Origin: Escherichia coli
Lineage (GTDB): Bacteria > Pseudomonadota > Gammaproteobacteria > Enterobacterales > Enterobacteriaceae
Assembly: GCF_029227855.1 (NCBI RefSeq)
Contig: NZ_CP074356.1
Strand: one strand, 5' to 3'
Length of the DNA stretch: 64,000 nucleotides
Part shown: positions 33,332 through 36,300 of the stretch, in pieces
Layout: the number at the start of each line of letters is the position of its first letter
Position numbering within the stretch: the first letter of the stretch is position 1
Program-made: the position numbers

Positions 33332-36300
33332 GGTTATGCGCTGATGCCTGATGCGGCGCGGGCGCGTCTTATCATACCCTGGAAGTCTGCGCCCGAATCG
33401 TAGGCCGCCTCCGCTATATTAACTGGCATTGGCAAATTACTCGTCACTACCTTTATTCATGTTTTTTTGGTCTTCATCCGGATAATGTTTTTTTAGATAT
33501 TCCAGGACGTTTTTATTGACCTTGTGTTGCGTATACACCCACCCTTTCCAGTAATCAGGCTGGTCCAGGTAAACTTCTGGCGGAATGGTGAAATCAGAAA
33601 GCGTTAACCATTCGGCTAATAGATCGGGGTTTCGTTTCTGGATTAACTGCAACAGCATAATCAGTGACATAGCTGAGGCAGGAGCCGTACTATCGCCACT
33701 TAAATATTTCCACACTGTTGACCGGTTCGAACGAAAAAGGATCGGTAGCAATGCCCGGTCCAGATTCATTTCATTAAAAATCTTCTCAAATTCATTCATT
33801 TAAATTTTCCTGCCTGGCGTAAACCTCTTAAAAATTGAGATTTATCAAAGAAACGCATTTTAGCACACATCAGGAACCGCTTCACGTTTAGTCCAGAAAC
33901 AGAATTTATTTCGCTTATCAAAACAAGTCTTTACTCTTTTTTACATTGAAAGAGCACAAAATGATTTTCGATTTTATTTATATAAGAAACATTTTTTGTT
34001 TCTTATTGGTGGTGTTTACGCTTACACCAGACAAAAATGCGCTTTACATCACACAAATGGCGGCGTAGATTTCGATTAAATTGCAACGCAGTTTATTTCT
34101 TAAAACAATATTATTTGTTTCTTATAGAAACATTAATGCGACTTATTTTGAACAAGAGAAAATGAATGAAAACTGTAAACGTAGCTTTACTGGCACTCAT
34201 AATTTCAGCAACATCCAGCCCTGTTGTTTTAGCTGGTGATACCATTGAAGCGGCGGCAACAGAGCTTTCAGCCATTAACTCTGGCATGTCGCAATCGGAG
34301 ATTGAGCAGAAGATTACCCGCTTTTTAGAACGCACAGACAACAGCCCCGCTGCGTATACCTATTTGACTGAACATCACTACATCCCTTCTGAAACACCTG
34401 ATACCACTCAGACTCCCACTGTCCAGACAGATCCTGACGCAGGACAAAAAACCGTTGCCGCTACAGGTGATGTACAGACAACCGCCCGTTATCAGAGCAT
34501 GATCAACGCCCGACAGTCTGCGGTAACTGATGCCCAGCAAACGCAAATTACAGAGCAACAGGCGCAGATCGTAGCCACACAAAAAAACGCTCGCCGCGAC
34601 TGGAGATACGCAAAATACTGCGCATTATCAGGAGATGATTAATGCCAGACTGGCGGCTCAAAATGAGGCTAATCAGCGCACTACCACGGAACAAGGGCAG
34701 AAAATGAATGCACTGACAACCGATGTGGCAGCACAACAGCAAAAAGAAAGGGCTCAATACGATAAACAAATGCAAAGTCTGGCGCAGAAGTCTGTCCAGG
34801 CACATGAGCAAATTGAAAGTCTGAGACAAGATTCCGCACAAACGCAGCAACAGTTAACCAACACGCAAAAACGGGTCGCAGATAACAGCCAACAAATTAA
34901 CACGCTCAATAACCATTTCGATTCTCTGAAAAACGAAGTTGAGGACAATCGTAAAGAAGCCAATGCGGGAACTGCATCAGCCATCGCTATCGCCTCACAA
35001 CCACAGGTGAAAACCGGTGACTTGATGATGGTGTCAGCGGGAGCGGGAACCTTCAACGGTGAATCTGCGGTGTCTGTAGGAACATCTTTTAATGCCGGAA
35101 CGCATACGGTACTTAAAGCAGGTATTTCTGCGGATACACAATCTGATTTCGGTGCGGGTGTCGGCGTGGGATATTCGTTCTAATTTTAACAGCAATTTCT
35201 TATTCGCAATTTTCCGTACATTATTTAAGGTTAACAATGATGAATAGCTCCATTAAATCGTTTTCCCTGCTGGCGGTTATATTACTGGCTGGCTGTAGTT
35301 CACCCACTTCCCGCATCGCAGATTGCCAGGCGCAGGGCGTCAGCCATGACACCTGTTATCTCGCAGAACAACAGCGTCAGACGGCTATTTTAAGTGCATC
35401 CGAGGCGCAGGCATTTAAAAATGCAGAAGCCGCACAACATGCCCAGGCGGCAAAGAAAGCCATTTATAAAGGATTTGGAATGACCTTTAGAATGAGCAGT
35501 AAAAACTTTGCTTATCTCAATGATTCATTATGTGCAATTGATGAAGACAATAAAGATGCCACTGTTTATCAGTCAGGTCTGTATAACGTCATTGTTTATC
35601 ATCACACAGGAAAAGTCGCCTTAATGAAGGAAGGTCAATTTGTGGGTTATTTAAAATGAAGGAGCAAAGGAAAATACCCCTGACGCATATTATGATTATC
35701 GGTGCGTTTATTTTTGCCTTCTTGCAAGTAGTATTATTAGCCTCCCTGGTTCACGCTGTGAATGTTAACAACGAAATCCAGGAAGGCTTATTTCAGTCGG
35801 GGCGCATTATGGTAGAAAGTTTGCAGCATATTCTTTCGGTGCAAACGGGGATTAACTGATTTTCACCCCGCCCGATGATGACAGCAGCCGGAGAGATTTT
35901 CGATAATCGGGCAGTCGGCGCTGTCATCACCAGGGCAGGCATTCGCCAGCGCCAACAGCTGGTTGCGCATGGATTGCAGTTCTTCGATATGTCGCTCGAT
36001 CTCCGCCACTTTCTCCAGGGTGCGACGTTTGACGTCGGCACTGTGACGCTGCGGATCGTTAAACAGATTCACCAGTTCGCCGCTCTCTTCCAGGTTAAAG
36101 CCCACCTGGCGCGCCTGGCGCAGTAAGGTCAGTTCGTTGAGATGCTGCTGCGTGTAGGTTCGATAACCATTTTCGCTGCGCATCGGCGGCGTCACCAGCC
36201 CCTTCTCTTCATAGAAGCGGATTGCTTTGCTGGTCAGGCCGGTAATTTTTGCTACATCGCTAATGTTCATCGTTCGCGCAACGCCTCCTGTGCTTTATTA

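What the first reader, a model, noticed from the sequence alone, without database searches (positions are those of the whole stretch)
33430..35860. AT-rich ~2.4 kb islet between the ybbJ REP cluster and cueR
Four small ORFs (a 120-aa hypothetical, a split trimeric autotransporter, a lipoprotein, a 67-aa membrane protein) sit where, from memory, K-12 has ybbJ adjacent to cueR. The base composition is markedly more AT-rich than the surroundings, consistent with horizontal acquisition.
Basis: partly seen in the sequence, partly recalled or inferred. Interest (0 to 1): 0.5.

Follow-up and report, generated by a model that had tools for sequence, protein, structure and literature searches.

The report
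Known E. coli islet OI-29
The AT-rich stretch is the already described E. coli accessory islet OI-29, a small surface-adhesin gene cluster absent from K-12, and here its adhesin gene is broken by one extra base.

Summary
Window 33252-35862 is a 2.6 kb low-GC insert (0.43 against 0.55 for the window) between ybbJ and cueR, whose stop codons abut in K-12. It is the known O157:H7 island OI-29, also called S-loop 43 (z0638-z0640; ECs0546-0549). At least 80% of it is present in 1361 of 5426 complete E. coli genomes.

- **Gene content:** a 120-aa protein (z0640) is transcribed divergently from a headless YadA-anchor trimeric autotransporter (z0639), a lipoprotein (z0638) and a 67-aa membrane protein.
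- **The "split" autotransporter:** it comes from one extra A (A7 instead of A6, 34581-34587). None of 1021 genomes holding this segment has that allele, so it is a private mutation or a homopolymer sequencing error.
- **Conflict with the literature:** published primers show that the "transcriptional activator GmrA" of Yang et al. 2018 is this autotransporter ORF. Its sequence predicts an outer-membrane protein.
- **z0640 as the likelier regulator:** it belongs to a tiny family that sits divergent from autotransporter genes in several unrelated genomic contexts. Distant members match Xre-type HTH models. The ~366-bp spacer carries a conserved promoter-like core and GAAAC repeats.
- **Origin:** relatives carry a fifth gene. 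E. coli strains show nested deletion states at this site.

Verdict: already known, low to moderate interest.

The parts
33252..33436 (.). REP-type repeat cluster between the ybbJ stop codon and the islet genes
   Evidence: Rfam naRNA4 (REP-derived) matches 33301-33378 at 66.2 bits against a 59.5-bit gathering score. The stretch matches a median of 22 places per E. coli genome. REP copy number here varies between Escherichia loci.
33437..33799 (-). z0640 / ECs0549 homologue, 120 aa; candidate Xre-type HTH regulator of the divergent autotransporter operon
   Evidence: It is 96.7% identical to the O157 copy. The published z0640 deletion-primer arm maps to 33800-33837. The family is tiny: 21 clusters, 23 representatives among 1.84 billion proteins, and 4 of about 100,000 species genomes. 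Homologues lie divergent from a YadA-anchor gene in Escherichia, Pseudocitrobacter, L011 and L023. This protein itself matches only the MqsA HTH region at E=0.12. Distant members reach MqsA 3e-5, Xre-like-HTH 7e-5 and HTH_3 3.8e-4.
33800..34165 (.). AT-rich (GC 0.31) divergent regulatory spacer with GAAAC/GTTTC repeats
   Evidence: The motif occurs 6 times in 366 bp: GAAAC at 33850, 33896, 33986 and 34127; GTTTC at 33998 and 34117. About 1.0 copy is expected, and 0 of 2000 Markov simulations reach 6. Two copies form the palindromes AAGAAAC-N7-GTTTCTT (33984-34004) and GTTTC-TTATA-GAAAC (34117-34131). Spacer length (359-379 bp) and motif positions are kept in Pseudocitrobacter, Symbiopectobacterium, L011 and L023.
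34043..34071 (+). Promoter-like site TTTACA-17-TAGATT in front of the autotransporter gene
   Evidence: Found by the consensus scan, although the number of such sites in the region is not above shuffled expectation. Its core lies in the best conserved block of the spacer alignment. The 15-mer GCGCTTTACATCACA is identical in L023, where the z0640 homologue is only 48% identical. Function is inferred, not shown.
34166..35183 (+). z0639 / ECs0548 / 'gmrA': YadA-family trimeric autotransporter gene, 338 aa when intact, interrupted in this window
   Evidence: The intact copy in JNEC-KY178 matches the whole Pfam YadA_anchor model (PF03895) at residues 279-338, E=1.6e-11. It also matches the AtaA and Hia anchor structures. 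It has an N-terminal hydrophobic signal-like segment, a Q/A/T-rich passenger with a 40-aa internal repeat, and ends in GYSF. The published gmrA deletion, cloning, FLAG and qPCR primers map to this ORF.
34581..34587 (+). A7 homopolymer (A6 in intact alleles) that frameshifts the autotransporter at codon 139
   Evidence: It is the only difference from JNEC-KY178 across 33200-36000, and one of two differences across 14.8 kb. All 1021 complete genomes holding the surrounding 62 bp give less than 100% identity. The 25 best hits listed are 98.4%, with a 61-bp span consistent with A6. The products are a 158-aa N-fragment (34166-34642) and a 182-aa leaderless C-fragment (34635-35183).
35237..35659 (+). 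z0638 / ECs0546 lipoprotein, 140 aa
35656..35859 (+). 67-aa single-span membrane protein, start overlapping the lipoprotein stop (ATGA)
   Evidence: Maximum 19-residue hydropathy is 2.65 at residues 14-32. Pseudocitrobacter has 67-68-aa homologues with 35-44% identity, an invariant NxNNE motif and, in L006 and L008, the same 4-nt overlap with the lipoprotein gene. It is annotated by PGAP but was not among z0638-z0640.
32793..33251 (+). ybbJ, left flank
   Evidence: The last ~30 nt differ at many positions from the K-12 allele.
35863..36270 (-). cueR, right flank; its stop lies 3 nt from the stop of the 67-aa ORF

Best explanation
The islet is the Escherichia accessory island OI-29 (S-loop 43). 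It is a self-contained surface-protein module. One arm is an operon. It encodes a short, headless, coiled-coil trimeric autotransporter (z0639). This protein would be exported by Sec, inserted into the outer membrane through its YadA anchor, and displayed as a Q/A/T-rich stalk of variable length. A lipoprotein (z0638) and a translationally coupled 67-aa membrane protein follow it. The other arm is z0640, a small Xre-like helix-turn-helix protein that most likely controls the operon. It would act through the conserved ~366-bp AT-rich spacer, which holds a conserved promoter-like core and repeated GAAAC/GTTTC sites. In this particular genome the autotransporter is inactivated, or mis-sequenced, by one extra A in an A6 run. 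Shown here: the identity with OI-29, the domain content, the distribution, the frameshift, and the synteny and motif conservation. Inferred: operon structure, DNA binding by z0640, an accessory role for the lipoprotein and small protein, and outer-membrane localisation.
For: - **Identity with OI-29:** the same genes lie between ybbJ and cueR in Sakai and PA11 at 96-99% protein identity. The OI-29, z0638, gmrA and z0640 primers of Yang et al. map onto the window.
- **Autotransporter:** full-length YadA_anchor match, E=1.6e-11; AtaA and Hia anchor matches; signal-like N-terminus and terminal Phe. Alleles of 338, 436, ~477 and ~600 aa differ by coiled-coil repeat modules. Ogura 2007 lists ECs0548 as 'Saa-like protein'.
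- **z0640 and autotransporter pairing:** seen in four or five different chromosomal contexts with a constant ~360-380-bp spacer.
- **HTH link:** distant family members match Xre-type HTH Pfam models at 3e-5 to 4.5e-4.
- **Spacer:** GAAAC enrichment with 0 of 2000 simulations reaching the observed count, and a conserved promoter-like core.
- **Co-regulation:** all three published genes are expressed in DMEM (RPKM 20-96) and are undetectable after 3 h on HeLa cells.
- **Frameshift:**
Against: - Yang et al. 2018 report that z0639 (GmrA) activates fliA, binds its promoter in EMSA and ChIP-qPCR, and is needed for motility. They report that deleting OI-29 does not change adherence to HeLa or Caco-2 cells, and that z0638 and z0640 deletions have no motility phenotype.
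- z0640 itself has no significant HTH match (E=0.12), and its AlphaFold model is poor (pLDDT 57).
- The lipoprotein family also occurs without an adjacent autotransporter.
- The lipoprotein shows no similarity to the known helper SadB.
- The number of promoter-like sites in the region is not above shuffled expectation.
- No adhesion, localisation or DNA-binding experiment for any of these proteins supports my reading.
Confidence: 0.75

Rival explanations
1. As published, z0639 is GmrA, a cytoplasmic transcriptional activator. It binds the fliA promoter and raises flagellar synthesis, and the islet is chiefly a motility-regulation island.
For: PMC5826968 reports that OI-29 and gmrA deletions reduce motility and flagellation. 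It reports complementation by gmrA alone, an EMSA with His6-GmrA on PfliA, ChIP-qPCR with GmrA-3xFLAG, and the same phenotype in eight strains. A later review repeats this.
Against: The primers show that gmrA is the ORF with an N-terminal signal-like segment and a complete C-terminal YadA anchor. I found no recognised DNA-binding domain. The only DNA-related matches are coiled-coil artefacts: SMC at 23.7 bits against a 567-bit cut-off, and TMF_DNA_bd at E=0.079. The biochemical constructs carried an N-terminal His tag in front of the signal peptide, or a FLAG tag after the terminal GYSF. By inference, either tag would keep a real autotransporter out of its normal pathway. The motility effect could be real but indirect. 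The complementing plasmid also carried almost the whole regulatory spacer, from 33848.
Confidence: 0.15
2. The islet is a decaying, functionless remnant of an older insertion, and its ORFs are on the way to being lost.
For: The autotransporter is frameshifted in this window. The site shows nested deletion states: five genes, four genes, the 407-aa gene alone, remnants of it, or nothing. The neighbouring giant adhesin gene is also broken.
Against: The A7 allele is found in 0 of 1021 genomes, and the genes are annotated intact in the genomes inspected. All four proteins, the spacer length and the spacer motifs are conserved between Escherichia and Pseudocitrobacter at 35-74% protein identity. 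This indicates purifying selection. The genes are transcribed and regulated in O157.
Confidence: 0.07
3. The module is a toxin-antitoxin or anti-phage defence cassette, with z0640 as an MqsA/Xre-like antitoxin.
For: z0640 shows weak similarity to the MqsA antitoxin HTH region, E=0.12 and down to 3e-5 in relatives. In L011 an Xre/RES pair lies next door.
Against: No PADLOC model matches z0640, the lipoprotein or the small protein. The autotransporter gives only coiled-coil noise. The conserved partner of z0640 is a YadA-anchor gene on the opposite strand, not a co-transcribed toxin.
Confidence: 0.03

Closest known systems
O-island 29 of E. coli O157:H7 EDL933 (z0638-z0640), also S-loop 43 of Sakai (ECs0546-ECs0549)
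   Same: Same position between ybbJ and cueR, same gene order, and 96-99% protein identity. The published primers match.
   Different: The window carries the allele closest to JNEC-KY178 (100% apart from one base) and has the extra A that breaks z0639. The 67-aa ORF is not among the three genes named in the EDL933 description.
Short or headless coiled-coil trimeric autotransporters such as Saa of STEC and NadA of Neisseria (comparison from the literature and my own knowledge)
   Same: Signal peptide, mainly coiled-coil passenger, C-terminal YadA-type anchor, and length variation by repeat modules. ECs0548 was labelled 'Saa-like'.
   Different: No YadA head or neck domain was detected. No adhesion phenotype has been reported; the OI-29 deletion did not change HeLa or Caco-2 adherence. 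I did not compare the sequence with Saa or NadA directly.
sadBA operon of Salmonella/E. coli (lipoprotein SadB assisting the autotransporter SadA) and TpgA-AtaA of Acinetobacter
   Same: A lipoprotein gene lies in the same operon as a trimeric autotransporter gene. The predicted architecture is a long helix plus a beta domain.
Xre/Cro-C1-type HTH regulators, including the MqsA C-terminal domain
   Same: Helix pattern and the 'RST..KY..G....PA.A..L..LL' signature. Distant family members match MqsA_antitoxin, Xre-like-HTH, HTH_3 and HTH_26.
   Different: The window protein itself does not reach significance. It has a conserved C-terminal extension (PPEVYL..P.YWKGW) with no match. DNA binding is untested.

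Membership tests
O-island 29 / S-loop 43 of E. coli O157:H7 | Inserted between ybbJ and cueR, where K-12 has no spacer | tested here: met
O-island 29 / S-loop 43 of E. coli O157:H7 | Contains z0638, z0639 and z0640 orthologues in the same order and orientation | tested here: met
   tblastn identities to the PA11 and Sakai copies are 96-99%. The published primer arms map with 0-1 mismatch.
Trimeric autotransporter adhesin (type Vc secretion) | C-terminal YadA-like membrane anchor (PF03895) at the very C-terminus | tested here: met
   E=1.6e-11, model positions 1-60 of 60, residues 279-338 of 338. AtaA and Hia anchors match at E=5e-7 to 1e-5.
Trimeric autotransporter adhesin (type Vc secretion) | N-terminal Sec signal peptide | tested here: met
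   MKTVNVALLALIISATSSPVVLA|GD: a basic N-terminus, a hydrophobic core (hydropathy 2.05) and small residues before the putative cleavage site. No dedicated signal-peptide predictor was available.
Trimeric autotransporter adhesin (type Vc secretion) | Coiled-coil stalk in the passenger | tested here: inconclusive
   Q/A/T-rich composition, tandem repeats, and many weak hits to coiled-coil families such as SMC, ATG16 and CCDC93. No coiled-coil predictor or trimer model was run.
Trimeric autotransporter adhesin (type Vc secretion) | YadA head/neck adhesive domains | tested here: not met
   No head, neck or stalk-repeat Pfam family was reported. Not all accepted members have these domains (own knowledge).
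Trimeric autotransporter adhesin (type Vc secretion) | Trimerisation, surface display and adhesive function | not testable with these tools
   The literature reports no adherence change for the OI-29 deletion.
Trimeric autotransporter adhesin (type Vc secretion) | Uninterrupted reading frame in this window | tested here: not met
   The extra A at 34581-34587 splits the ORF.
Transcription factor (the published assignment of z0639 as GmrA) | A recognisable DNA-binding domain | tested here: not met
   Pfam and NCBIfam give only the YadA anchor plus sub-threshold coiled-coil matches. The published figure showing the claimed domain is not held.
Xre/Cro-C1-type HTH regulators (for z0640) | Significant match to an HTH profile | tested here: inconclusive
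   The window protein scores E=0.12. One member of the 18-sequence family alignment reaches E<=0.001 for each of four HTH models (best 3e-5 to 4.5e-4), and two members reach E<=0.1.
Xre/Cro-C1-type HTH regulators (for z0640) | HTH fold | tested here: inconclusive
   The AlphaFold model is all-helical with short helices at 17-23 and 26-33, but mean pLDDT is 57. No fold search was attempted on it.
Xre/Cro-C1-type HTH regulators (for z0640) | Sequence-specific DNA binding | not testable with these tools
   There is only the indirect evidence of conserved GAAAC repeats in the adjacent spacer.
SadB-type autotransporter helper lipoprotein (for z0638) | Homology to SadB | tested here: not met
SadB-type autotransporter helper lipoprotein (for z0638) | Lipoprotein encoded in one operon with a trimeric autotransporter gene | tested here: met
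   LAGC lipobox. It lies 53 nt downstream of the autotransporter here, and is adjacent to one in Pseudocitrobacter and Enterobacter asburiae. Linkage is not universal.

The most novel reading that the evidence does not exclude
The gene published as the transcription factor GmrA is in fact an outer-membrane trimeric autotransporter, and its effect on motility is indirect. The real DNA-binding regulator of the island is the unstudied z0640. It would found a small new family of Xre-like regulators dedicated to autotransporter genes, acting on GAAAC repeats in a conserved ~366-bp spacer. The downstream lipoprotein and 67-aa membrane protein would then be a third kind of trimeric-autotransporter accessory pair, after SadB and TpgA.
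Probability: 0.35. Interest if true: 0.5.

Novelty: already known. Interest (0 to 1): 0.3.

Why it matters
The islet has been catalogued since the O157 genome papers and was studied functionally in 2018. Rediscovering it adds nothing. Three things could still matter to specialists.

1. The literature assigns a cytoplasmic DNA-binding role to a protein whose sequence is that of an outer-membrane autotransporter. That assignment has been copied into reviews of EHEC regulation.
2. A very small protein family (z0640) is consistently paired with autotransporter genes through a conserved spacer. This offers a tractable case of dedicated adhesin regulation.
3. The ybbJ/cueR junction holds a series of nested deletion forms. 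That argues against the published idea of four independent gains.

Tried and rejected
- **z0640 structure:** AlphaFold with 13 homologues gave mean pLDDT 57. This is too poor for a fold search, so none was run.
- **Solved-structure searches:** profile searches with the z0640 and lipoprotein alignments found nothing significant.
- **NCBIfam:** nothing for z0640, the 67-aa protein or the 407-aa neighbour gene.
- **PADLOC:** only coiled-coil noise, so I rejected a defence-system reading.
- **Plasmids:** tblastn found no plasmid-borne copy. The two best 'plasmid' records are chromosome-sized, so I did not pursue a plasmid origin or a direct link to Saa.
- **Rfam:** only the REP-derived naRNA4 hit across the islet.
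- **Promoter scan:** 4 sites against 4.8 expected. I rely on cross-genus conservation of one site, not on the count.
- **Phase variation:** I considered the A-run as a phase-variation switch and rejected it, because all 1021 other genomes carry the same non-A7 length.
- **Known regulators at the GAAAC sites:** I considered OmpR- or CpxR-type sites from memory, but I had no tool to test this.
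Full report
**Observation**

GC of 33430-35860 is 0.427. The whole window is 0.548, and the flanking 10 kb are 0.542 (left) and 0.594 (right). The islet is the lowest of all 1232 sliding windows of its size, and the spacer at 33800-34165 falls to 0.309. The stretch 33252-33436 is a REP-type repeat. Rfam naRNA4 matches 33301-33378 above its gathering score, and the segment recurs a median of 22 times per E. coli genome. In K-12 MG1655 the convergent cueR and ybbJ stop codons are adjacent bases.

**What it is**

A megablast against 5426 complete E. coli genomes finds at least 80% of the region in 1361 of them. It always lies between ybbJ and cueR. In O157:H7 Sakai the genes are ECs0546 (lipoprotein), ECs0548 ('adhesin') and ECs0549. 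Ogura et al. 2007 list ECs0548 as a 'Saa-like protein' in S-loop 43, absent from K-12. Yang et al. 2018 (PMC5826968) describe the same segment in EDL933 as the 2,643-bp O-island 29, holding z0638, z0639 and z0640. Their deletion-primer homology arms map onto the window with 0-1 mismatch:
- z0640 is 33437-33799.
- z0639 is 34166-35183.
- z0638 is 35237-35659.

The islet is therefore already known.

**The 'split' autotransporter**

Across 33200-36000 the window differs from strain JNEC-KY178 by one base, an extra A that turns an A6 run into A7 (34581-34587). Across 14.8 kb there is only one further SNP. I searched the 62 bp around the run against all complete genomes. All 1021 genomes that hold the segment score below 100%. 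The 25 best hits listed are 98.4% with a 61-bp span, which is consistent with A6. The intact gene encodes 338 aa. The insertion at codon 139 yields a 158-aa N-terminal fragment and a leaderless 182-aa C-terminal ORF. This is either a private mutation or a homopolymer sequencing error. It is not a property of the island, and the uniform run length argues against phase variation.

**Gene content**

- **z0639:** it matches the complete Pfam YadA_anchor model at its extreme C-terminus (E=1.6e-11). It also matches the solved anchors of AtaA and Hia. It begins with a signal-like segment and ends in GYSF. Its passenger is Q/A/T-rich with a 40-aa internal repeat. No head or neck domain is detected. 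Other E. coli strains carry alleles of 436, ~477 and ~600 aa that differ by ~123-aa coiled-coil modules. PGAP under-calls two of these as 349 aa.
- **The 67-aa ORF:** it overlaps the z0638 stop by 4 nt and has one hydrophobic span. It is conserved in Pseudocitrobacter, with the same 4-nt overlap in two of the three loci.
- **z0640:** it has no significant family match (E=0.12 to the HTH part of MqsA).

**Conflict with the literature**

Yang et al. name z0639 GmrA. They describe it as a transcriptional activator with a 'putative DNA-binding domain' that binds the fliA promoter. Their cloning primers start at the ATG of the autotransporter ORF (ATGAAAACTGTAAACGTAGCTTTA). Their FLAG primer ends on the codons for GVGYSF, and their qPCR primers lie in the anchor. 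GmrA is therefore the YadA-anchor protein.

I find no DNA-binding domain in it. The only DNA-related hits are sub-threshold coiled-coil matches: SMC at 23.7 bits against a cut-off of 567, and TMF_DNA_bd at E=0.079. The EMSA protein carried an N-terminal His tag. The ChIP protein carried a C-terminal FLAG tag. By inference, both tags would divert a genuine autotransporter from export and from recognition by the outer-membrane assembly machinery.

I cannot judge the experiments themselves, and the motility phenotype may be real but indirect. The figure showing the claimed domain is not held.

**z0640 as the likelier regulator**

The family is tiny. It has 21 clusters at 90% identity and 23 representatives at 50% identity among 1.84 billion proteins. 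It appears in 4 of about 100,000 species genomes. Wherever enough context is available, it lies divergent from a YadA-anchor gene:
- Escherichia, between ybbJ and cueR.
- Pseudocitrobacter, between qmcA and fetA.
- A metagenomic contig, L011.
- L023, where the homologue is 48% identical and two autotransporter genes follow in tandem.
- Symbiopectobacterium, in degraded form.

Eighteen family members were scanned individually. For each of four HTH models one member reaches E<=0.001: MqsA_antitoxin 3e-5, Xre-like-HTH 7e-5, HTH_3 3.8e-4 and HTH_26 4.5e-4.

The spacer keeps its length (359-379 bp) and conserved blocks across these taxa. One block is the promoter-like TTTACA-17-TAGATT at 34043-34071. 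Its GCGCTTTACATCACA core is identical in L023. GAAAC/GTTTC occurs six times in the 366 bp against about one expected, and 0 of 2000 simulations reach that count. The positions are conserved, and two copies form palindromes. That z0640 binds these sites is an inference.

RNA-seq in the paper's supplement shows all three genes expressed in DMEM and silent after 3 h on HeLa cells.

**Accessory genes**

The lipoprotein follows a YadA-anchor gene in Escherichia, in Pseudocitrobacter, and in an unrelated chromosomal context in Enterobacter asburiae. It stands alone in two other loci. A helper role like that of SadB or TpgA is therefore only a hypothesis. A 2026 survey of autotransporter helpers considered only proteins with a YadA head, so it would have missed this family.

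**Origin**

The islet has no integrase or transposase. Pseudocitrobacter has overlapping cueR and ybbJ, like K-12, and carries the module on the other side of qmcA-ybbJ. The tight junction therefore looks ancestral, and the Escherichia insert looks derived.

E. whittamii, Escherichia sp. E1V33 and E. coli O145 RM11626-C1 carry a five-gene form, with an extra 407-aa gene next to cueR. E. coli A13 has only that gene. Strain 5-1 and many others keep a doubly deleted remnant. In all, 966 genomes hold part of the 407-aa gene, and 271 hold at least 80% of it. The last ~30 nt of ybbJ in K-12 differ markedly from the island-bearing allele.

The patchy distribution therefore reflects an old acquisition followed by several different deletions. 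This differs from the four independent gains proposed in the paper.

**Verdict**

- The frameshift is private to this genome.
- Published GmrA is identified as the autotransporter ORF.
- z0640 is paired with autotransporter genes through a conserved spacer motif.
- The site carries a series of deletion forms.

Interest is low to moderate.

Noticed in passing
window 36267-36270; L005 (K-12) 5926-5994: The cueR start overlaps the stop of a HlyD-type type I secretion gene (36267-37442). K-12 and other strains that lack this secretion locus keep a 23-codon remnant of the HlyD C-terminus just upstream of cueR. The secretion and giant-adhesin locus therefore appears to have been deleted in K-12, not inserted here.
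   Followed up: partly
window 39605-43117 and 43002-60374 (- strand): The giant BapA/SiiE-like adhesin gene downstream of the type I secretion genes is split into ORFs of 1170 and 5790 aa. PGAP marks the same gene as frameshifted in JNEC-KY178.
   Followed up: no
L014 1530-2851, L017 3335-4655, L018 4596-5819, L019 2523-3746: A 407-aa gene with no NCBIfam match lies between the islet and cueR in E. whittamii, Escherichia sp. E1V33 and some E. coli. Part of it is present in 966 of 5426 E. coli genomes, mostly as a doubly deleted remnant (for example in ST131).
   Followed up: partly
L012 2444-4246 and L013 2366-3799: Long alleles of the autotransporter (ORFs of ~600 and ~477 aa with signal peptide) are annotated by PGAP as 349-aa proteins that start internally, leaving an apparently empty 0.7-1.1 kb upstream.
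   Followed up: partly
L006-L008 and L015 (Pseudocitrobacter): The same four-gene module lies between qmcA and fetA rather than between ybbJ and cueR. It sits on the opposite side of the qmcA-ybbJ operon but in the same chromosomal neighbourhood. In Symbiopectobacterium a degraded copy also lies near qmcA-ybbJ.
   Followed up: partly
window 33984-34004 and 33940-33962: The GAAACAT-type repeats and a TTTACATTGAAAG stretch resemble OmpR half-sites as I recall them. The paper reports osmolarity-dependent expression of z0639. This was not tested.
   Followed up: no
window 35154-35188: A weak terminator-like hairpin with a T-rich tail overlaps the end of the autotransporter ORF. It could explain the roughly five-fold lower RNA-seq signal of z0638 relative to z0639 in the published data.
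   Followed up: no
window 38920: This is the only substitution relative to JNEC-KY178 in 14.8 kb (C here, T there). It lies inside the type I secretion ABC transporter gene.
   Followed up: no
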